20,096 nt of DNA, taken from Candidatus Iainarchaeum sp. (GTDB lineage: Archaea > Iainarchaeota > Iainarchaeia > Iainarchaeales > CSSED10-239). Below are positions 1-18,539 of the stretch, piece by piece; the first letter of the stretch is position 1; every line of letters begins with the position of its first letter. Position numbers and translations under genes: made by a program. The stretch lies in assembly GCA_028693335.1 (NCBI GenBank), contig JAQUVR010000002.1, forward strand, positions 1-20,096, in the 5' to 3' direction. The notes under the pieces are model-generated. The model did not search any database. It was not told where the DNA came from and saw only the letters and a program-made list of their open reading frames with translations.

Positions 1-152
1 AAAGTGGATATGGTGGTAAAGCTAAAATTGTTGGAACTGTTAAAAAACAGAATAAAAAACCGACTTTTATTGCAGAATGTGCAGTATGTAAAGCAAAACA
101 TTATTTTGTAATACCAAAAAAAATGAAGAAAGTTGAATTAACAGCAAACTAA
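1..152 (+). CDS. rpl44e: Ribosomal protein L44e (eL42), C-terminal fragment; the 5' end lies outside the window
   Basis: Frame 3 (codons from nt 3) reads SGYGGKAKIVGTVKKQNKKPTFIAECAVCKAKHYFVIPKKMKKVELTAN, with stop TAA at 150-152. The pattern GYGG..K...KKPT...C..C.KAH matches the C-terminal half of archaeal/eukaryotic L44e, including the second Cys pair of the zinc site. Confidence 0.75.
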   Translation, partial: SGYGGKAKIVGTVKKQNKKPTFIAECAVCKAKHYFVIPKKMKKVELTAN

Positions 153-154
153 AC

Positions 155-171
155 TTTCTTTTCTTTTTTTA
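155..171 (+). terminator. Oligo-T tract after rpl44e, a possible archaeal terminator
   Basis: The sequence tttcttttcttttttta follows the rpl44e stop directly. Archaeal RNAP terminates at oligo-T runs. There is no further support. Confidence 0.35.
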
Positions 172-187
172 TTAAAAAAAGTAATTC

Positions 188-196
188 TTTAAAATA
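188..196 (+). promoter_or_regulatory. TATA-like box for the membrane-protein/ATPase operon
   Basis: TTTAAAATA is centred about 26 nt upstream of ATG 218, which fits a leaderless or short-leader archaeal promoter. In DNA this AT-rich the match is weak evidence. Confidence 0.35.
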
Positions 197-217
197 GATC
201 TATAATCTATTTTACTT

Positions 218-910
218 ATGAAAATTGATACTTATTACAAATTCATAGCATCCACTTTTGGAATTGCATATTTTGTTGGATTAGTAATTGGTATATTATT
301 AACTATTGGTGGAACAGATGTTGCGCCAGAAACAAATATAACAAATTCTTTTTTTTTACAAAGTACAGTTAATTTTAGAGCACTTTTTATAGAAACCATT
401 AATTTATCATTTACTCAAGCAGCAATTCCATTTACCTATTTAATTGTAAGTGTAAAATATGGCTTGAATCATGCATTTTTATTAACAAGTCCATTCCTTG
501 GACAAATTAAATTATTTGTTCAATTAATACCACAAGTGTTTTATTTTATTTCTTTTATATTATTTGCAACAATTGGATTAAAACTAATAATTTACTTAAT
601 AGTAAAATTAGCAAATTTAGTTTTTGAAAAAACAAAAAGAAATATTTTTTTAAAATTAAATCCTTTTAACAAAAATGACCCCCTATTTTTATATCTGGCA
701 CTATTGTTTATTATTACTGGTGTCTTTATACAGATATTTTTAAGCAAAATATTCTTTATTTTTTTAATTAATTTTCAATTAGTTTCATATGTTTTTATTA
801 TAATATTATATATCTTATTAATAACCACAAGTCTATATTTAGTATACTCAACAATAAAATCAGCACTTGAGGAAATAAAAAACATTTATAAAAAAATAAT
901 ATTTAAATGA
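218..910 (+). CDS. Polytopic integral membrane protein of unrecognised family (about 6 hydrophobic segments)
   Basis: A 230-aa ORF with several long hydrophobic stretches (FGIAYFVGLVIGILLTIGG, FYFISFILFATIGLKLIIYLIV, LFLYLALLFIITGVFIQIFL, VSYVFIIILYILLITTSLYLV). Its stop TGA (908-910) overlaps the ATG (907) of the next gene as ATGA. Confidence 0.6.
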   Translation: MKIDTYYKFIASTFGIAYFVGLVIGILLTIGGTDVAPETNITNSFFLQSTVNFRALFIETINLSFTQAAIPFTYLIVSVKYGLNHAFLLTSPFLGQIKLFVQLIPQVFYFISFILFATIGLKLIIYLIVKLANLVFEKTKRNIFLKLNPFNKNDPLFLYLALLFIITGVFIQIFLSKIFFIFLINFQLVSYVFIIILYILLITTSLYLVYSTIKSALEEIKNIYKKIIFK

Positions 911-3435
911 TAATTATGGATAAAAGCTTTAATTTTGATACAGAAGACATAGTTTTGGGAAGAGTTTCAAGTCAACAAAAAAAATATGGAAACAAAGCAA
1001 CTGGATATATAGGAAAAGTTGTAGTTTCTAGTGGTGATGAACCAGTTCTTGGAAAAAAAATATTAATGGATCTAGCAAGATCTCATGTAGCTATTGTTTG
1101 CGGAAAAAGGGGCGGTGGAAAATGCCTAACTGGCGATACCTTAATAACTATAGAGGATGGTAGAGAAATACCAATCAAAGATTTAGACAAAAACAAGACA
1201 CCAGTATTATCTTTACAAAGTAATTTTAAAATAAAATCAACTAATAAAGATCAATTTTTTAAAAGAGAAGTAAATAAGATTTTAGAAGTTAAATTAAGAA
1301 CAGGAAAAATAATAAAATTAACACCAGAACATCCCTTATTAACCATTTCAGGATGGAAAGAAGTAAAAGATCTTAAAAAAGGAAGCAGAATAGCAACACC
1401 AAGAAACACACCTTTTTTTGGAAAAACAAAAATTAGAGATTGCGAAATAAAATTACTGGCATATTTGATTGCAGAAGGCCATTTAGGTAATGGCTTTGTG
1501 CTATTTTCTAATACTGATGAAAAAATAATAATAGATTTTAAAAAAGCAATTGGAGATTTTGATAAAACACTAAAAATCTTAGATCACGGACATAAAACAT
1601 TAAGGATTAGCAAATCAAAAATTGGAAAAGAGAAAAATCCACTTAAAGAATATCTTAAAAATTTATATTTATATGATGTAAGATCAGAAACAAAATTTAT
1701 TCCAGAAATTATTTTTAAATTGCCAAAAAAACAATTATCTTTATTTCTAAACAGATTATTCAGCTGTGATGGAACTATATACTTTGATAAAAATAAAAAA
1801 GAATGGGAAATTTCTTATTCATCTTCATCTCAAAAATTAATATTACAAGTTCAAAGTTTGCTTTTAAGATTTGGATTAATTTCTGTAATTAGAACAAAAA
1901 AAACAAAGAAACTGCCAAATTATGAATTAAAAATATTAACCAGTAAAAATATAGATTTTATAAAAGAAATTGGTTTTTTTGGAAAAAAAGAATTATTACA
2001 AAAAAAAGTAACTACAAAAAAAAGTAATCCAAATATTGACACAATTCCAAAAGAGATCTGGGATATTTACAGACCAAAAAGTTGGTCAGCAATTGGCAAA
2101 GAAATAGGATACAAAAATCCAAAATCTCTTAGAAATTCAATAAATTACTCTCCTTCTAGAGAAAAATTATTAAAAATTGCAACCATCGAAAAAAACAATG
2201 AATTAAAAAAAATTGCAACTAGCGATATATTTTGGGATGAAATTATTGAAATTAAGGAAATTAATAAAAAAGAAACTGTCTATGATATAACTGTTCCAAA
2301 CACACATAATTTTATTGCTAATAATATTATTGTTCACAATAGTTATACAATGTCAGTATTAATAGAAGAATTTTGTAGACAACCATTTGAAATAAAAGAA
2401 AGACTATCTGTTCTAATAATTGATACTGTTGGAATTTTTTGGACAATGAAATATCCTAATAAAGAAGACCCAGAATTATTAAAAAAATGGGATCTTTCTC
2501 CAGAAGGATTAGATATTAGAAATCTTGTGCCACTTGGTAAAAAAGATTTTTATGTTGATAAAAAATTACCTCATGATGGTTACTTTACAATAAAAACATC
2601 ACAAATGGATACAGAAGACTGGCTTGGTGTTTTTAGATTGACATGGAGAGATCCAGAAAGTTCTTTACTTTCAAGAACATTAGAAACTATTAGACAGAAA
2701 GTTGGTAACTTATATGATATTGATGATATAATAAATATTTCTCAAAAAGATCTAGACTCTAACAAAGAAACAAAAAATTCTTTAATGAATAGATTGTTAG
2801 TTGCAAAATCATGGGGTTTGTTTTCAAAAACAGGAACAACTATGAAAGAGTTTGCAGCTCCAGGGACAATTACTGTTATTGATGTTAGTACTTATAAACA
2901 ATCTATTGGAATGGAATCCATACATGAACTAATTGTTGGAATTTTAGGTAAAAGATTGTATGAAGAGCGTATGCTTTATAGAAAAGAAGAAGAAATGAAT
3001 CTATTATCTGGTAAAAGAAAAGAAAGTGAAATGCCAATTATCTGGATGATGATTGATGAAGCACACATGTTTATGCCATCAGACAGACCATCAATGGCAT
3101 TAGATGTTCTACTTCAATGGATAAGGGTTGGAAGACAACCTGGATTGTCATTACTTTTAGCAACACAGCGTCCAAATAAGTTACATAGCGAAGCAATTTC
3201 ACAATGTGATTTCTTTTTGAGCATGAGAATGACTGCTCAAGATGATATTCTTGCAGTAAGTTCAATAAGACCAAGCTATTTAAATGTACCAATGGATAAA
3301 TTTTATGCGCAGATGCCAAGAGATCAAGGTTATGCTATAGTTGTAGATGATAATTCAGAAAAAGTTATGTTAGTAAAAATAAGACCAAGACTTACTTGGG
3401 ATGGTGGAAAAACAGCTAATGTTTTTGTTGATTAA
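907..3435 (+). CDS. HerA/FtsK-superfamily (DUF87-like) P-loop ATPase, intein-containing precursor (842 aa; 436 aa after splicing)
   Basis: Walker A GKRGGGK|S is interrupted after the Lys and restored by splicing to GKRGGGKSYTMSVLIEE. Walker B is IIWMMIDEAH (DEAH at nt 3055-3066). LLLATQRPNKL and the C-terminal KIRPRLTWDGGKT are typical of HerA/DUF87-type ATPases. Confidence 0.85.
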   Translation: MIIMDKSFNFDTEDIVLGRVSSQQKKYGNKATGYIGKVVVSSGDEPVLGKKILMDLARSHVAIVCGKRGGGKCLTGDTLITIEDGREIPIKDLDKNKTPVLSLQSNFKIKSTNKDQFFKREVNKILEVKLRTGKIIKLTPEHPLLTISGWKEVKDLKKGSRIATPRNTPFFGKTKIRDCEIKLLAYLIAEGHLGNGFVLFSNTDEKIIIDFKKAIGDFDKTLKILDHGHKTLRISKSKIGKEKNPLKEYLKNLYLYDVRSETKFIPEIIFKLPKKQLSLFLNRLFSCDGTIYFDKNKKEWEISYSSSSQKLILQVQSLLLRFGLISVIRTKKTKKLPNYELKILTSKNIDFIKEIGFFGKKELLQKKVTTKKSNPNIDTIPKEIWDIYRPKSWSAIGKEIGYKNPKSLRNSINYSPSREKLLKIATIEKNNELKKIATSDIFWDEIIEIKEINKKETVYDITVPNTHNFIANNIIVHNSYTMSVLIEEFCRQPFEIKERLSVLIIDTVGIFWTMKYPNKEDPELLKKWDLSPEGLDIRNLVPLGKKDFYVDKKLPHDGYFTIKTSQMDTEDWLGVFRLTWRDPESSLLSRTLETIRQKVGNLYDIDDIINISQKDLDSNKETKNSLMNRLLVAKSWGLFSKTGTTMKEFAAPGTITVIDVSTYKQSIGMESIHELIVGILGKRLYEERMLYRKEEEMNLLSGKRKESEMPIIWMMIDEAHMFMPSDRPSMALDVLLQWIRVGRQPGLSLLLATQRPNKLHSEAISQCDFFLSMRMTAQDDILAVSSIRPSYLNVPMDKFYAQMPRDQGYAIVVDDNSEKVMLVKIRPRLTWDGGKTANVFVD
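1123..2340 (+). mobile_element. Full-length intein (406 aa) with a LAGLIDADG homing-endonuclease domain, inserted in the Walker A motif
   Basis: The intein starts at Cys (TGC 1123-1125) in CLTGDTLITIEDG (block A). Block B is KLTPEHPLL (TxxH). The two LAGLIDADG motifs are LLAYLIAEGHL and LFLNRLFSCDGTI, each keeping its acidic residue. Block F is VYDITVPNTHNF. Block G is NNIIVHN, ending at nt 2340 and followed by the +1 Ser (AGT 2341-2343). Confidence 0.85.
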
Positions 3436-3436
3436 T

Positions 3437-3730
3437 TTAAGATAAATGTTCTCTTACAATATCCTTTATTTCATTTCTTATTTGGACACCTGCTTTTACA
3501 TCTGTAAAATTATTTTTTTCAGAAACTACTGAATAACCATCACTTACTAGTAAGTGTTTTCTATCACCAATAGTATAGCAACCAGGAGTTATGTGTCCAT
3601 CTTGAAATAAAACAAAATTATCTATTTTTTTTAAATTTAAGGTCATCAACAATTTATATGTTGCGTTCATAGTAGTGCCATAATGCATACAATTATCTAA
3701 TACTAAAACAGGATCAGATCTCTCTGTCAT
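3437..3730 (-). CDS. Phosphoribosyltransferase-like protein; this is the ATG-delimited minimum, and the frame stays open upstream to 3934
   Basis: PVLVLDNCMHYGTTMNATYKLL resembles the PRPP-binding loop of type I PRTases (hydrophobic strand, two polar/acidic residues, then xxTGxT). The in-frame upstream 68 codons (..NIIILDKSARAIYIGILEYYRIKYPNEKPPRIYFLNP..) have no stop and look like the N-terminal half of the same fold, but they contain no ATG/GTG/TTG. Confidence 0.55.
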   Translation of the reverse strand: MTERSDPVLVLDNCMHYGTTMNATYKLLMTLNLKKIDNFVLFQDGHITPGCYTIGDRKHLLVSDGYSVVSEKNNFTDVKAGVQIRNEIKDIVREHLS

Positions 3731-3924
3731 TAATCTTTTATATCTATTTGCAAATTGTCTAACTGCCTGAGCAGTAAAATGCTCATTATGCTTAAACGAA
3801 TTTGGATTTAAAAAATAAATTCTTGGTGGTTTTTCATTAGGATATTTAATTCTATAATATTCTAGTATTCCAATATAGATTGCTCTTGCAGATTTATCTA
3901 AAATAATTATGTTTTTTATTTTAT

Positions 3925-4092
3925 TTAATTTAATTTAATTCTATTTACTGTTTTTTCAACAGCAACAAATACACGACGTCTCTCTCTAATAATTGGCTCT
4001 GGCTTTGGTCTTTGTATTGGTTTTTTAGACAAACGACTTAAACCAGAACAAGGTTTTTTTTTAAAAATAGAACAAATTTGGCATCTAATCAC
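3925..4092 (-). CDS. Possible small basic Cys-containing protein (55 aa from GTG 4092); speculative
   Basis: GTG lies 8 nt after the stop of the upstream gene. The product reads (M)IRCQICSIFKKKPCSGLSRLSKKPIQRPKPEPIIRERRRVFVAVEKTVNRIKLN. It is K/R-rich with a CxxC plus one further Cys, and I recognise no family. The ORF-track version (3925..4146) overlaps the upstream gene. Confidence 0.25.
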   Translation of the reverse strand: MIRCQICSIFKKKPCSGLSRLSKKPIQRPKPEPIIRERRRVFVAVEKTVNRIKLN

Positions 4093-4099
4093 AAAAAAA

Positions 4100-4783
4100 C
4101 TATTCTTCAAGTAATTTTCCGCCAAAATCAGCAGCTGCAGAATCACAGATCTTAACTTTCTTACTTGTTCCGTCTATTACTAAAACATTATCTTTTTCAA
4201 AATAAATAACTACGCTTTCAGAAACAAGTCTAAATTTTAGGTTGTTAGATTTTAACACTTCTTCATATATTAAATCTAAATTAGCACTTGGAACAATAAT
4301 ATCTGTTCCAACTTTTCTTCCTTCTATGTGTGTTGCAATAGTATTTAGATCAATTGTTCCAACAACATTAAATTTTAACACAAATTCAGAAATATTAAAT
4401 GAATCTATTATCTTGTTAATAAAATCTTTAGATTTTTTTGCATTCTCAAAAATAATTTTTCTGTGAGATCTAAATGTTTCTAATAACTGGTTTCCGTGTT
4501 GTAATTCTTTTTCAAATGTATCTATGTCTTGTTTTATTTGTTGAATTAAAACGTGCATTTTTTTATATAATGGAATAAGATCTCTCTTTTTTATTTCTTC
4601 TTCTAAATAAACATCTAATAATGGTTCTTTTTCATGAATATTATTAATAACTTCTAAATCTTTAGAAATATTTTCAAATATTTCAACTAATGGTATATAA
4701 GTTTCTGTAATTTTATTTGTTTTATATAGATTTTTGTTAAAAGAATCAAATACTTTTGATAATTTTGCATCAAGTTCTGGCAT
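4100..4783 (-). CDS. Hypothetical protein with a coiled-coil N-terminal half and a mixed alpha/beta C-terminal half
   Basis: A 227-aa ORF with good coding character. GAGGT lies 5 nt upstream of the ATG and a TATA-like tttatatatatttt lies upstream (plus strand 4801-4814). I recognise no family. Confidence 0.6.
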   Translation of the reverse strand: MPELDAKLSKVFDSFNKNLYKTNKITETYIPLVEIFENISKDLEVINNIHEKEPLLDVYLEEEIKKRDLIPLYKKMHVLIQQIKQDIDTFEKELQHGNQLLETFRSHRKIIFENAKKSKDFINKIIDSFNISEFVLKFNVVGTIDLNTIATHIEGRKVGTDIIVPSANLDLIYEEVLKSNNLKFRLVSESVVIYFEKDNVLVIDGTSKKVKICDSAAADFGGKLLEE

Positions 4784-4856: not shown

Positions 4857-5198
4857 TCACAAATATTTAATAAATTTGTTATTTTTATCAACTAGTATGT
4901 TTTTTGAAGAAATTGGGGTTTGACTTAATTCAAAACCCATAATTATTATTTCTTCCCCTCTTTTAATCAAATGAGCAGAAGCACCATTCATACAAATATC
5001 TCCAGAATCTTTTTTTCCAGAAATAACATATGTTTCAAGTCTGTTTCCAGTAGTGTTACTTACAACAAGAACTTTTTCACCATCTAATAACCCAACTAGA
5101 TCCATTAATGTCTTATCAATTGTTATTGAACCAACATAATCTATATTTGCATCAGTTACAGTTGCTTTGTGTATCTTTGATCTTAAAAATTCTCTCAT
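4857..5198 (-). CDS. panD: Aspartate 1-decarboxylase, pyruvoyl-dependent (bacterial PanD type)
   Basis: MREFLRSKIHKATVTDANIDYVGSITID aligns with E. coli PanD (..[22 protein letters not shown]..), including the Gly-Ser self-cleavage site. NGASAHL corresponds to NGAAAH. The length of 113 aa is typical. Confidence 0.85.
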   Translation of the reverse strand: MREFLRSKIHKATVTDANIDYVGSITIDKTLMDLVGLLDGEKVLVVSNTTGNRLETYVISGKKDSGDICMNGASAHLIKRGEEIIIMGFELSQTPISSKNILVDKNNKFIKYL

Positions 5199-5200
5199 AA

Positions 5201-6103
5201 TTAACCCTTAATTTCTAAATAACAATAATATGCAGCAATTGCTCCTTGACTAGAAGCAGTAATAACCTGTTTTAGATCTGTTTTGTTTGTTGCATCTCCT
5301 GCAGCAAATATTCCAGAAATATTTGTTTTTTGACTCTTATCTACAACAATAAAACTATTTTTATCCAATAAAACATCTAATTTAGATAATAAATCAGTAT
5401 TTGGAACAGAGCCTATTTCAATAAATAAACCATCAAGAGAAATATTTTTATCATTGTTTGTGATTATCCCAGTTAATCTTTCAGAACCCAAAAGTTCAGT
5501 AACTTCTGTATTGTACAAAATTTCAATTTTTGAATTATTAATTGCTAAATCAATCCAAACTTTTTCTGCTCTTAATTGTTCTTTTCTATAGATAATGTAT
5601 ACTTTATTTGCTATCTCAGAAAGCATAATTGCAGCAGTAACAGCCGCATCAGAGCCACCAATAACAGCAACAATTTTATCCTTATAAAAACCAGCATCAC
5701 AGGTTGCACAATAACTAACACCTTTTCCAGTAAATTCTTCTTCTCTAGGCAAACCTAATTTTCTTCTAGCTCTACCTATTGCTAAAATTATTTTTTTTGC
5801 TTTTATAGTTCTTTGATCTGTATTTATAATAAAATCATTTTCTTTTTGTATATCAATAGTTTTTTCAAAAACAATATCAACATTAAGATTTGTTGCTTGA
5901 TCAATCATTTTTAAAGAAAGATCCATACCAGTAATTTCATTAAACCCAGGATAATTACAGATTTTGTGTGCTGTTGACATCATTCCTCCAAAAGAATCAG
6001 AAATTACAACAGTAGTTAATCCATATCTTTTGCCATAAATTGCAGCGGTTAGTCCTGCTGGACCACCACCTATTATTGCCAGATCATAAATATTTTCATT
6101 CAT
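5201..6103 (-). CDS. trxB: Thioredoxin-disulfide reductase
   Basis: FAD-binding motif IIGGGPAGLTAAIY, redox-active CATC within SYCATCDAGFY, a second dinucleotide fold VIGGSDAAVTAAIML, and C-terminal FAAGDAT. The length of 300 aa is typical of low-molecular-weight TrxR. Confidence 0.9.
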   Translation of the reverse strand: MNENIYDLAIIGGGPAGLTAAIYGKRYGLTTVVISDSFGGMMSTAHKICNYPGFNEITGMDLSLKMIDQATNLNVDIVFEKTIDIQKENDFIINTDQRTIKAKKIILAIGRARRKLGLPREEEFTGKGVSYCATCDAGFYKDKIVAVIGGSDAAVTAAIMLSEIANKVYIIYRKEQLRAEKVWIDLAINNSKIEILYNTEVTELLGSERLTGIITNNDKNISLDGLFIEIGSVPNTDLLSKLDVLLDKNSFIVVDKSQKTNISGIFAAGDATNKTDLKQVITASSQGAIAAYYCYLEIKG

Positions 6104-6519
6104 TTTTTCTTCCCTTTATTAATTAATATATCTTCAAATAATTTATTATAGTCTCTTTTCTTTGGTTTTAAACCAAGAGATTTTTCCATTGATTCAAAAC
6201 CGTATTTTATGGTTTCAGGGCTTATTTCCATTGTTGGAATTCTATTTTCCTCTAAAGCATCCAGAAATTCTCTATATGTTATTCCTGCAATCTTTGCACC
6301 ACCAGCAATATTAACTTCTTTGTTTTCATAGGCTCTTAAGGCCACACCAAGTCTATATTCTTTAAGCCCTTTTTCAATTAACTTCCTTAAAAAATCAGAC
6401 TCTGTTAGATTTTCTTCCTTTGCAATATTATAAGCCATAGTGGCCATTGAGTCAGTTAATCTTAAAGTTTTTACTTTTTTTATTTCATAATTGCAATTTT
6501 TTTTTCCCATAAATTTCAC
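6100..6519 (-). CDS. Ribbon-helix-helix + UPF0175-family antitoxin-like protein
   Basis: The N-terminus TLRLTDSMATMAYNIAKEENLTESDFLRKLIEKGL has an RHH/CopG-like pattern. It is followed by LGVALRAYENKEVNIAGGAKIAGITYREFLDALEENRIP, the UPF0175 pattern. The ORF-track start is GTG 6519. ATG 6510, preceded by GGTGA, is the more likely start. The stop overlaps the trxB ATG (ATGA at 6100-6103). Confidence 0.6.
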   Translation of the reverse strand: MKFMGKKNCNYEIKKVKTLRLTDSMATMAYNIAKEENLTESDFLRKLIEKGLKEYRLGVALRAYENKEVNIAGGAKIAGITYREFLDALEENRIPTMEISPETIKYGFESMEKSLGLKPKKRDYNKLFEDILINKGKKK

Positions 6520-17600: not shown

Positions 17601-18464
17601 ATGAAAAAAAATTTAGAAATAGAAAAAGGAAAAAAGATTGCTAAACTATCTTTGTGGTCAGTAACAATACTTACTTTAATTAAATTAATAGTTGGCTTTT
17701 TTTCTGGAAGCATAGGACTAATTGCAGATGGGATAAATAGTTTTACAGATATATTAGCAAATTTAACCTCTTATTTAGGATTAAAAATTTCCGAAAAAAA
17801 AGCAAATAAAAATTTCCCATATGGTTTTTATAAATCAGAAAATGTTGCAACCTTAATAATTTCTTTTTTTATATTTTTTGCAGGCTATAAATTATTTACT
17901 CTTAGTTACAATAAATTATTTTCTAATTATGTTCCTGAAATAACAATACTTATCTTAATTATTCCAATAATATCAATAGCATATTCCTTTATTATTTCAA
18001 AATATCAAATAAAAATAGGAAAAGAAATAAATTCTAATAGCCTAATAGCAAAAGGAATTGATTCAAGAAATGACATTCTTGCAACTGGTGTTGTCTTATT
18101 TGGAATGTTTTGTACTTATTTAAATATAAAGTATATAGAAATAATTGCAGGAATACTAGTAAGTCTTTTTATATTTAGAACAGGATATGTTTGTATAAAA
18201 ACAGCAATACATCCATTACTTGATGGATCAGCTGATAAAAAATTAATTGATAAAGTTGAAAAAATAATTCTTAAAGAAAAATGCAAAATAAAAGTATTAA
18301 GAATTAGATCTTCTGGATTATTTTATCATGGAGAAGCAACAATATTAGTGGATTCTAAATTAACTATAAAAAAAGCACACGATATTGCAAACAACATAGA
18401 AAAACAAATAAAAAAAGATGTTTCTGAAATTAAAGACTTTATAATACATATAGAACCAAAATAA
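17601..18464 (+). CDS. Cation diffusion facilitator (CDF) family metal efflux transporter
   Basis: SLWSVTILTLIKLIVGFFSGSIGLIADGINSFTDIL (TM1-2), FPYGFYKSENVATL, the TM5 motif GIDSRNDILATG, and a C-terminal cytoplasmic domain HGEATILVD...AHDIANNIEKQIKK...HIEP. The length is 287 aa. Confidence 0.85.
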   Translation: MKKNLEIEKGKKIAKLSLWSVTILTLIKLIVGFFSGSIGLIADGINSFTDILANLTSYLGLKISEKKANKNFPYGFYKSENVATLIISFFIFFAGYKLFTLSYNKLFSNYVPEITILILIIPIISIAYSFIISKYQIKIGKEINSNSLIAKGIDSRNDILATGVVLFGMFCTYLNIKYIEIIAGILVSLFIFRTGYVCIKTAIHPLLDGSADKKLIDKVEKIILKEKCKIKVLRIRSSGLFYHGEATILVDSKLTIKKAHDIANNIEKQIKKDVSEIKDFIIHIEPK

Positions 18465-18539
18465 GCCAATAGAGGGATTTGAACCCTCGACCTTTTGCTT
18501 ACGAGGCAAATGCTCTAAGCCGGGCTGAGCTATATTGGC
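18465..18539 (-). tRNA. tRNA-Thr (anticodon CGU)
   Basis: The minus strand folds as a cloverleaf: GCCAATA TA GCTC AGCCCGGCTTA GAGC A TTTGC CTCGTAA GCAAA AGGTC GAGGG TTCAAAT CCCTC TATTGGC. It has a 7-bp acceptor stem, 4-bp D stem, 5-bp anticodon stem with loop CU-CGU-AA, and 5-bp T stem. There is no intron and no encoded CCA. Confidence 0.9.

What the first reader, a model, noticed from the sequence alone, without database searches (positions are those of the whole stretch)
218..3435. Membrane protein translationally coupled to a HerA/FtsK-superfamily ATPase: candidate membrane-docked translocation module
The sequence shows a 230-aa protein with about 6 TM segments and no recognisable family. 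Its stop overlaps the ATPase start as ATGA (907-910). The ATPase has intact Walker A (after splicing), Walker B (DEAH), the ATQRP motif and the RPRxTxxGG tail. From established knowledge, canonical archaeal HerA sits with nurA/mre11/rad50, and none of those genes is nearby. By inference, FtsK/HerA/VirB4-class pumping ATPases paired with membrane partners usually move DNA or protein across membranes. In a reduced, possibly host-dependent archaeon such a module would be functionally important and appears uncharacterised.
Basis: partly seen in the sequence, partly recalled or inferred. Interest (0 to 1): 0.65.

Follow-up and report, generated by a model that had tools for sequence, protein, structure and literature searches.

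The report
Orphan membrane gene upstream of HerA-like ATPase
A small six-helix membrane protein of unknown family sits in a two-gene operon with an intein-interrupted HerA-like motor ATPase, but the pairing occurs in only one narrow branch of Iainarchaeota, while the ATPase is a stand-alone core gene across DPANN archaea, so a dedicated membrane translocation machine is possible but not shown.

Summary
ORF 218-910 encodes a 230-aa six-helix membrane protein with no family or fold match. ORF 907-3435 encodes a DUF87/HerA-type ATPase whose Walker A motif is split by a 406-aa LAGLIDADG intein (1123-2340). The ATGA overlap exists, although ATG 916 is an equally plausible start.

The ATPase is not canonical HerA: it scores far below the equivalog cut-offs, has a short N-terminal domain, and has no nurA/mre11/rad50 in the window. 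It is a roughly 431-aa ATPase conserved across DPANN (about 55-66% identity within Iainarchaeota, about 40% to other DPANN phyla).

The membrane protein is a sharply bounded orphan family of 68 clusters. It lies directly upstream of the ATPase in 14 of 14 loci that carry it, and in none of about 75 other DPANN loci. The sister lineage L008 lacks it. The ATPase shows no partner-specific sequence change. Other Iainarchaeota instead keep a soluble coiled-coil protein (likely C-terminal winged-helix) upstream.

Best reading: a housekeeping HerA-like ring motor with a clade-specific, co-transcribed membrane gene inserted upstream. Physical docking, as in a split FtsK or Ced-like device, remains an untested minority possibility.

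The parts
1..152 (+). 3' end of the ribosomal protein L44e (eL42) gene; syntenic upstream neighbour, not part of the unit
   Evidence: Frame 3 reads ...SGYGGKAKIVGTVKKQNKKPTFIAECAVCKAKHYFVIPKKMKKVELTAN*. Pfam Ribosomal_L44 genes occupy the same position in L001, L084, L085, L088, L090 and L091.
153..217 (+). Intergenic region: T-rich tract after the L44e stop (153-175), then a promoter-like TTTAAAAT (188-195) and CTATAAT (200-206) just before the membrane gene ATG
   Evidence: Sequence. TTTAAA(A/T) at about -33 to -26 recurs upstream of the membrane gene in most of the 14 clade loci, and CTATAAT at about -18 to -12 in the window, L001, L004, L005 and L085. Reading these as an archaeal TATA box with a near-leaderless transcript is inference from general knowledge of archaeal promoters.
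218..910 (+). Gene for a 230-aa six-TM orphan membrane protein (N-in/C-in). Invariant motifs are SPFLGQIKL (aa 91-99), LIP (103-105) and F-x3-IN within FFIFLINFQ (179-187). It has a basic cytoplasmic segment at 122-155.
   Evidence: There are 68 homologous clusters, all with E <= 1.7e-55 and nothing weaker. No library or fold match was found.
907..3435 (+). Gene for the 842-aa precursor of a DUF87/HerA-type ATPase (alternative start ATG 916)
907..1122 (+). N-extein (72 aa) ending in Walker A GKRGGGK
1123..2340 (+). 406-aa intein with a LAGLIDADG homing-endonuclease domain, inserted in the P-loop (Cys1 ... His-Asn, +1 Ser)
   Evidence: Intein_splicing 2.2e-29 and LAGLIDADG_3 3.4e-16. Block motifs are at nt 1321-1338, 1453-1479 and 1747-1773. 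Intein-free orthologues of 431 aa align across the junction.
2341..3435 (+). C-extein (364 aa plus stop) with Walker B IDEAH, GRQPG, ATQRP and the RPRxTWDGG tail
   Evidence: The AlphaFold2 model has pLDDT 87.4. The top Foldseek hits are HerA hexamers.

Best explanation
The ATPase is this genome's copy of a DPANN-wide, single-copy-looking HerA-clade P-loop ATPase of about 431 aa. Here it is interrupted in the P-loop by a homing intein that must splice out to restore Walker A.

By homology to HerA and FtsK rings, it most likely forms a hexamer that uses ATP hydrolysis at subunit interfaces to thread nucleic acid, probably dsDNA, through a central pore in the cytoplasm. This would be a housekeeping role in chromosome repair or segregation. 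That role does not depend on the upstream membrane protein, because orthologues in all other DPANN lineages lack it.

The 230-aa six-TM gene is an orphan restricted to one Iainarchaeota subclade. It was inserted between rpl44e and the ATPase gene and carries its own promoter. Because the stop-to-start spacing is -4 to +15 nt, the ATPase is now expressed from the same bicistronic mRNA.

Shown: gene structures, motifs, fold class, phyletic distribution, and adjacency.
Inferred: hexamer formation, DNA substrate, the promoter, co-transcription, and the idea that the linkage is primarily transcriptional rather than a physical complex.
For: - ATPase family membership: DUF87 at 7e-13. Best PDB sequence and fold matches are HerA.
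- Motifs are invariant across 20 diverse members.
- Distribution: more than 3,699 homologues. 593 of the first 600 pattern hits in GTDB species genomes encode a relative, and 75 of the top 80 loci carry DPANN or unclassified-archaeon labels.
- Identity: 55% on average (range 48-76%) between the clade and other Iainarchaeota, 66% among the other Iainarchaeota, about 40% to other phyla.
- Neighbouring genes across DPANN are heterogeneous housekeeping genes such as Trm5/TYW2, RFC, MgtC, Alba and L44e.
- Membrane family: only 68 clusters with a sharp E-value cliff. It is present in 14 loci, always directly upstream of the ATPase, and absent from all other loci even in six-frame HMM search.
- Sister lineage L008 (73% identical ATPase, L44e-400 bp-ATPase) lacks it yet shares 17 of 23 clade signature residues. 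The six residues unique to the partnered clade are conservative changes: P/S, L/I, F/Y, I/L, L/I.
- No TM fusions occur among 149 family representatives.
- A promoter-like element is conserved upstream of the membrane gene.
Against: - The pair stays intact while the membrane protein diverges to 36% identity. It also stays intact despite different insertions just upstream: a radical-SAM/PqqD cluster in L084 and methyltransferase genes in L089. Flanks downstream also vary. Such persistence and start/stop overlap are typical of interacting proteins.
- The membrane protein has a conserved basic cytoplasmic segment (aa 122-155, with invariant K122, N133 and D154) that could be a docking site.
- No direct evidence exists for the DNA substrate or for a cytoplasmic location of the ATPase.
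Confidence: 0.5

Rival explanations
1. The two proteins form a physical complex. The six-TM protein would be a membrane dock or channel for the HerA-like hexamer. This would give a split FtsK-like or Ced/VirB6-VirB4-like device that moves DNA or protein at or across the membrane in this Iainarchaeota subclade.
For: - 14 of 14 loci show adjacency on the same strand with spacing of -4 to +15 nt, including genuine ATGA overlaps in L088 and L090.
- The pair is retained through upstream and downstream rearrangements.
- The two proteins are co-inherited, with correlated divergence (r = 0.92).
- The membrane protein has a conserved basic cytoplasmic segment and C-tail.
- Precedent: the HerA-clade ATPases CedB/CedD work with the polytopic membrane proteins CedA/CedE (PMC11868833).
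Against: - The partner is absent from every other DPANN lineage and from the sister L008.
- No partner-specific change is seen in the ATPase.
- The ATPase has no TM segment or VirB4-like N-domain. VirB4 NCBIfam scores 25.6 bits against a cut-off of 590.
- The membrane model has no match to VirB6 or any channel in PDB (all E >= 1.4).
- No pilin-like or other secretion genes lie nearby.
- Correlated divergence is expected from shared vertical descent alone.
Confidence: 0.3
2. The ATPase is simply a divergent canonical HerA that works with NurA, Mre11 and Rad50 encoded elsewhere in the genome for double-strand-break end resection. The membrane gene would be irrelevant.
For: The top Foldseek hits are the HerA-NurA complex of T. 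kodakarensis and S. solfataricus HerA (E 1e-19 to 1e-17, TMq about 0.6). The HerA NCBIfam models are the best-named hits.
Against: - Scores are far below the equivalog cut-offs: 41.9 versus 970, and 29.8 versus 800.
- Only about 57 residues precede the P-loop, versus about 185 in TkHerA. The large N-terminal HAS-barrel domain, which by my recollection of published HerA-NurA structures carries the NurA-binding face, is therefore reduced or absent.
- No NurA, Mre11 or Rad50 domain is in the window or among the annotated neighbours in 10 looked-up loci.
Confidence: 0.08
3. The pair is an anti-phage defence or mobile-element module: a HerA-type defence ATPase or a viral/plasmid packaging ATPase with a membrane effector.
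For: PADLOC HerA models hit the C-terminal half (best 7.5e-22). PHROG terminase and FtsK-like families hit weakly. The best PDB sequence hits are anti-phage HerA proteins.
Against: - The hits cover only the shared ATPase core.
- The gene is a syntenic core gene next to ribosomal-protein, XPD-like helicase and thioredoxin-reductase genes across many genomes.
- No Sir2, DUF4297 or nuclease effector is present. The membrane protein has no PADLOC or PHROG hit.
- No integrase or repeats were noted.
Confidence: 0.04

Closest known systems
Canonical archaeal HerA (HerA-NurA; S. solfataricus 4D2I, T. kodakarensis 9X1L/9X1M)
   Same: Same fold class and motif set (Walker A, Walker B hhhDE, ATQ-type motif). 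It is the best structural match and both carry the DUF87 Pfam domain.
   Different: About 16-18% identity. Scores are far below the HerA equivalog cut-offs. The N-terminal domain is cut to about 57 residues. No nurA/mre11/rad50 neighbours were found. The family is confined to DPANN.
Ced DNA-import system of Sulfolobales (CedA/CedE polytopic membrane proteins with the HerA-clade ATPases CedB/CedD) and bacterial VirB6-VirB4
   Same: A HerA-clade ATPase working with a 5-6-TM membrane protein (PMC11868833).
   Different: No detectable homology of the membrane protein to VirB6 or CedA-type structures. The ATPase lacks TM helices and a VirB4-like N-domain. No CedA1/A2-like pilin genes are nearby. 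The partnership is restricted to one subclade.
FtsK/SpoIIIE
   Same: Same superfamily. FtsK is a DNA motor tethered to the membrane by an N-terminal multi-TM domain. A separate TM protein plus motor would be a 'split' version of this.
   Different: PF01580 scores 15.7 bits against a cut-off of 24. There is no fused TM domain. The gamma domain was not looked for. PDB FtsK hits are marginal.
Anti-phage HerA systems (Sir2-HerA, DUF4297-HerA, TdpAB)
   Same: These give the best sequence hits in PDB and PADLOC over the C-terminal ATPase half.
   Different: No effector partner is present. The gene is a conserved core gene in a housekeeping context, not in a defence island.

Membership tests
FtsK-HerA superfamily, HerA clade (Pfam DUF87, PF01935) | Pfam DUF87 hit above the gathering score | tested here: met
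   49.5 bits against a cut-off of 23.2, E 7.4e-13, on the spliced extein.
FtsK-HerA superfamily, HerA clade (Pfam DUF87, PF01935) | Intact Walker A (GxxxxGKS/T), Walker B (hhhhDE) and the conserved polar motif after the next strand (ATQ) | tested here: met
   GKRGGGK|S after splicing, MMIDEAH and LLATQRP are present. G66, K67, G71, K72, S73, E312, T347 and Q348 are invariant in 20 diverse members, and D311 is conserved in at least 90% of them.
FtsK-HerA superfamily, HerA clade (Pfam DUF87, PF01935) | HerA-like three-dimensional fold | tested here: met
   The AlphaFold2 model has pLDDT 87.4. Foldseek top hits are all HerA proteins, E 1.9e-19 to 1e-13, TMq 0.5-0.63.
FtsK-HerA superfamily, HerA clade (Pfam DUF87, PF01935) | Hexameric ring with ATP-driven substrate translocation | not testable with these tools
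   Needs biochemistry or a multimer prediction. Inferred only.
Canonical HerA (NCBIfam helicase_HerA NF040819 / HerA_Thermprot NF040937) | Score at or above the equivalog cut-off | tested here: not met
   41.9 bits against 970, and 29.8 bits against 800.
Canonical HerA (NCBIfam helicase_HerA NF040819 / HerA_Thermprot NF040937) | Full N-terminal HAS-barrel domain preceding the ATPase core | tested here: not met
   The family profile aligns its positions 57-376 to TkHerA residues 185-514. Only three short strands precede the P-loop strand in the model.
Canonical HerA (NCBIfam helicase_HerA NF040819 / HerA_Thermprot NF040937) | Gene neighbourhood with nurA, mre11 and rad50 | tested here: not met
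   None were found in the 27 window ORFs scanned with Pfam, nor among annotated neighbours in L001-L003, L084, L085 and L088-L091. The rest of the genome could not be searched.
VirB4/CedB-type conjugation or DNA-import ATPase with a VirB6/CedA-type membrane partner | VirB4-family HMM match or VirB4-like N-terminal domain | tested here: not met
   VirB4_plasma scores 25.6 bits against a cut-off of 590, over 83 residues only. No VirB4 structure is among the top 50 Foldseek hits.
VirB4/CedB-type conjugation or DNA-import ATPase with a VirB6/CedA-type membrane partner | Membrane partner with a VirB6/CedA-like fold | tested here: not met
   Foldseek of the membrane model against PDB, a 2026 copy that should include the R388 T4SS entries cited in PMC11868833, gave no hit with E < 1.4 and all TM-scores <= 0.28. 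Model confidence is moderate (pLDDT 79.5).
VirB4/CedB-type conjugation or DNA-import ATPase with a VirB6/CedA-type membrane partner | Accompanying pilin or other T4SS/Ced components nearby | tested here: not met
   No such domains were found in the window ORFs.
FtsK/SpoIIIE | PF01580 hit above the gathering score | tested here: not met
   15.7 bits against a cut-off of 24, with no stretch passing on its own.
Anti-phage HerA systems (PADLOC) | Full-length HerA defence model match plus an adjacent effector (Sir2, DUF4297 or nuclease) | tested here: not met
   PADLOC hits cover only residues about 240-415. Neighbours have no PADLOC hit. The gene sits in a core syntenic context.
Intein (Hint splicing domain plus LAGLIDADG endonuclease) | Cys1, block B TxxH, terminal His-Asn, +1 Ser/Thr/Cys, splicing-domain HMM, two LAGLIDADG motifs | tested here: met
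   C73, TPEHPL, VHN|S, LLAYLIAEG and LNRLFSCDG are present. Intein_splicing 2.2e-29 and LAGLIDADG_3 3.4e-16. Intein-free orthologues are colinear across the site. Splicing activity was not tested.

The most novel reading that the evidence does not exclude
In one Iainarchaeota subclade, a newly evolved six-TM protein with no detectable relatives has recruited the DPANN core HerA-like hexamer to the membrane. This would create a minimal two-component nucleic-acid (or protein) translocator: a split-FtsK or Ced-like device with a non-homologous membrane component. It could serve DNA uptake, DNA exchange, or chromosome clearance at division in a small-genome archaeon.
Probability: 0.2. Interest if true: 0.7.

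Novelty: new variant of a known kind. Interest (0 to 1): 0.4.

Why it matters
If the pair is a physical complex, it would be an independently evolved way of coupling a HerA-type motor to the membrane in DPANN archaea. The cell biology of these organisms (division, DNA exchange, host interaction) is almost unknown.

A second point holds whether or not the pair interacts. This work flags a compact HerA-like ATPase of about 431 aa that is strongly conserved across DPANN phyla and has no assigned function. Core genes retained in such reduced genomes are good candidates for essential processes.

As things stand, the membrane coupling is a lineage-specific operon and not a general feature of the ATPase family. 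That lowers its weight.

Tried and rejected
1. I suspected a distant SpoIIM/DUF95-like or other known polytopic family for the membrane protein, based on the motifs. No hit came from Pfam on all 23 aligned members at E <= 10, from NCBIfam, from a PDB profile search (only 0.16-0.47 to a single TM of PAC channels), or from Foldseek against PDB and BFVD. Rejected for lack of evidence.

2. I looked for a degraded remnant of the membrane gene in other loci, including sister L008, by six-frame HMM search. None was found.

3. I looked for 'Rosetta-stone' fusions of the ATPase to TM domains among 149 family representatives. The hydrophobic windows mostly fall inside the ATPase core, and there is no convincing TM fusion. 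Long relatives are instead fused to DUF835, or to a subtilase plus wHTH.

4. I looked for a conserved partner of the ATPase across DPANN by clustering all ORFs within 3.5 kb. Only lineage-level synteny emerged: the coiled-coil/likely wHTH protein, Alba, Trm5/TYW2 and others.

I used exact look-ups instead.

6. Iyer et al. 2004 (PMC521647) is not held. Literature searches for a described DPANN HerA-like or DUF87 family found nothing specific.

Full report
**What is in the sequence.** The window has about 25% G+C. It is archaeal: it encodes TFB, ribosomal proteins L15e, L35Ae and L44e, Nop5 and fibrillarin. ORF 218-910 (+) encodes a 230-aa hydrophobic protein, and ORF 907-3435 (+) an 842-aa protein.

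The larger protein is a DUF87/HerA-type P-loop ATPase. Its Walker A motif is interrupted after GKRGGGK by a 406-aa intein at nt 1123-2340. The intein has Cys1, a TPEHPL block B, two LAGLIDADG motifs, terminal His-Asn and a +1 Ser. It hits Intein_splicing at 2e-29 and LAGLIDADG_3 at 3e-16. Conceptual splicing gives a 436-aa extein with GKRGGGKS, IDEAH, ATQRP and IRPRLTWDGG, and a DUF87 hit at 7e-13.

The ATGA overlap at 907-910 is real. An in-frame ATG at 916 fits the conserved N-terminus of orthologues about equally well and would leave a 5-nt gap.

**The ATPase family.** The extein has more than 3,699 homologues. Most are about 431 aa without an intein and are annotated at best as 'ATP-binding protein' or 'HerA-like ATPase'.

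In GTDB species genomes, 593 of the first 600 pattern matches encode a relative. Of the 80 best loci, 75 carry DPANN or unclassified-archaeon labels: Iainarchaeota closest, then Micrarchaeota, Woesearchaeota/Nanoarchaeota, Aenigmatarchaeota and Nanohaloarchaeota. The other five carry Methanosarcinales or Thaumarchaeota labels.

Identity averages 79% inside the window's subclade, 55% to other Iainarchaeota, 66% among those, and about 40% to other DPANN phyla. That is high conservation for small, fast-evolving genomes.

The AlphaFold2 model is confident (pLDDT 87.4). Its best structural matches are HerA hexamers: T. kodakarensis HerA-NurA, S. solfataricus HerA, and anti-phage HerAs, at E 1e-19 to 1e-13 and TMq about 0.6.

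It is nevertheless not canonical HerA:
- NCBIfam HerA equivalogs score 30-52 bits against cut-offs of 800-970.
- The family profile aligns its positions 57-376 to TkHerA residues 185-514, so the large N-terminal domain is reduced to about 57 residues.
- FtsK (15.7 bits versus 24) and VirB4 (25.6 bits versus 590) memberships also fail.
- No NurA, Mre11 or Rad50 domain occurs among the 27 window ORFs scanned with Pfam, nor among annotated neighbours in the looked-up loci.

**The membrane protein.** It has no hit in Pfam (also none for any of 23 aligned members), NCBIfam, PADLOC, PHROGs or PDB sequences.

A single-sequence search found 27 clusters. A profile search found 68, all at E <= 1.7e-55 with nothing weaker down to 0.01. 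The family is therefore sharply bounded.

The alignment shows strong motifs: SPFLGQIKL, LIP, GxK and FFIFLINFQ, plus invariant D4, K8, H85, N133 and D154.

The AlphaFold2 model (pLDDT 79.5) has six long helices. Charge counts give an N-in/C-in topology with a basic cytoplasmic segment at 122-155 (net +4.9) and a basic C-tail. Foldseek finds nothing in PDB (best E 1.4, all TM-scores <= 0.28), so no VirB6, transporter or channel match, and nothing in BFVD.

**Is the pairing conserved?** Within the subclade, yes. In all 14 loci that carry the membrane gene, the ATPase gene follows on the same strand (window, L001, L004-L007, L084-L091). Spacing is -4 to +15 nt. The exception is L091, where both genes look damaged.

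The pair stays intact even where other genes have been inserted just upstream: a radical-SAM/PqqD cluster in L084 and methyltransferase genes in L089. It also persists where the downstream neighbour differs.

The membrane protein diverges 2.5 times faster than the ATPase, and the two sets of pairwise identities track each other (r = 0.92). This is expected for co-inherited genes.

A promoter-like TTTAAA(A/T) at about -33 to -26 is conserved upstream of the membrane gene in most of the 14 loci. A CTATAAT at -18 to -12 occurs in five of them. A T-tract follows the rpl44e stop. These features suggest that a two-gene transcript starts at the membrane gene, but this is inference.

**Outside the subclade, no.** None of about 75 other DPANN loci has the gene. 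ORF-level jackhmmer and six-frame HMM searches found no remnant.

The sister lineage L008 has a 73% identical ATPase and the order L44e-400 bp-ATPase, but lacks the membrane gene. It still shares 17 of the 23 residues that distinguish the subclade's ATPase from other Iainarchaeota. The six residues unique to the partnered ATPases are conservative changes. The ATPase therefore shows no sign of adaptation to a membrane partner.

No relative carries a convincing TM fusion. Long relatives are fused to DUF835, or to a subtilase plus wHTH.

In other Iainarchaeota and in Micrarchaeota, the recurrent same-strand upstream neighbour is a soluble ~160-aa coiled-coil protein with a likely C-terminal winged-helix domain, found in 24 loci, with Alba further upstream. 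In other phyla the neighbours are unrelated housekeeping genes.

**Interpretation.** The ATPase's conserved function cannot depend on this membrane protein. The most economical reading has three parts:
- A DPANN-wide, stand-alone HerA-like ring motor, probably a cytoplasmic DNA translocase.
- A subclade-specific orphan membrane gene inserted between rpl44e and the ATPase gene.
- Expression of the ATPase now tied to that gene's promoter, which alone would keep the two genes together.

A true physical complex remains possible. This would be a split FtsK-like or Ced-like device; CedA/CedE with CedB/CedD is the nearest precedent (PMC11868833). The tight spacing, the persistence of the pair and the conserved cytoplasmic segment favour it. 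No direct evidence supports it, and several observations weigh against it. I put it at about 0.3.

Canonical HerA-NurA repair, anti-phage defence and mobile-element origins are unlikely, for the reasons given under the rival explanations.

**Verdict.** The finding is a new variant of a known kind and of moderate interest. The broader and more robust point is the existence of an uncharacterised compact HerA-like ATPase conserved across DPANN.

Noticed in passing
window 1123-2340: A 406-aa LAGLIDADG intein is inserted in the P-loop of the ATPase. Orthologues inside and outside the subclade carry an insert of about 360-430 aa at the same site, while others are intein-free at 431 aa. Examples: L005-L008, L030-L035, L084-L086, L088, L089 and L091 carry an insert; L001, L004, L087 and L090 are intein-free. 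This pattern is consistent with homing.
   Followed up: partly
L003 5333-5812 (also 23 other loci, e.g. L009 5390-5866, L038 1818-2369): In other Iainarchaeota and Micrarchaeota, a conserved ~160-aa soluble coiled-coil protein with a likely C-terminal winged-helix domain (read from the sequence; Pfam gives no wHTH hit) lies upstream of the ATPase on the same strand. It is often adjacent, with Alba further upstream. It is absent near the ATPase in the window's subclade. It could be the ancestral functional neighbour of the ATPase.
   Followed up: partly
window 4100-4783 (-): A 227-aa soluble protein with no Pfam, PADLOC or PHROG hit is a conserved neighbour downstream of the ATPase in 15 Iainarchaeota loci (convergent in 14). 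Its function is unknown.
   Followed up: partly
window 3436-4099: About 660 bp lies between the ATPase stop and the 227-aa gene; in L001 and L005 those genes are 13-27 bp apart. The extra stretch holds a 97-aa ORF (3437-3730, -) with a phosphoribosyltransferase-like VLVLDNCMHYGTT motif but no library hit. It also contains a terminator-like hairpin at 3768-3785.
   Followed up: no
P0201, P0244, P0261 (DUF835 fusions); P0219 (subtilase S8 + ATPase + wHTH): Distant relatives of the ATPase (33-38% identity) occur as 1,200-1,650-aa proteins fused to DUF835, or to a subtilase and a winged-helix domain.
   Followed up: partly
window 4857-5198 (-): A pyruvoyl-type aspartate 1-decarboxylase (PanD, Pfam 2.9e-38) lies next to a thioredoxin-reductase-like gene in this DPANN genome. 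L001 lacks a PanD gene at the corresponding place, so it may be a lineage-specific acquisition.
   Followed up: no
P0124 (membrane-protein homologue, 77% identical): NCBI labels this protein as 'Patescibacteria group bacterium'. Every examined locus of the family is archaeal, so this is probably a binning error. Some ATPase loci labelled Methanosarcinales or Thaumarchaeota (L034, L056, L065) may likewise be mis-binned DPANN contigs.
   Followed up: no
L084 1430-4567; L089 42-3865: Different gene sets have been inserted between rpl44e and the membrane gene in relatives. L084 has a radical-SAM x3 + PqqD-like cluster (a RiPP-type cluster). L089 has two DNA methyltransferase genes plus two unknown genes (restriction-modification-like).
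   Followed up: no
window 6100-6519 (-); 18464-18539 (-): A UPF0175-family (antitoxin-like) domain protein lies at 6100-6519. The only RNA gene detected in the window is tRNA-Thr(CGT) at 18464-18539.
   Followed up: no
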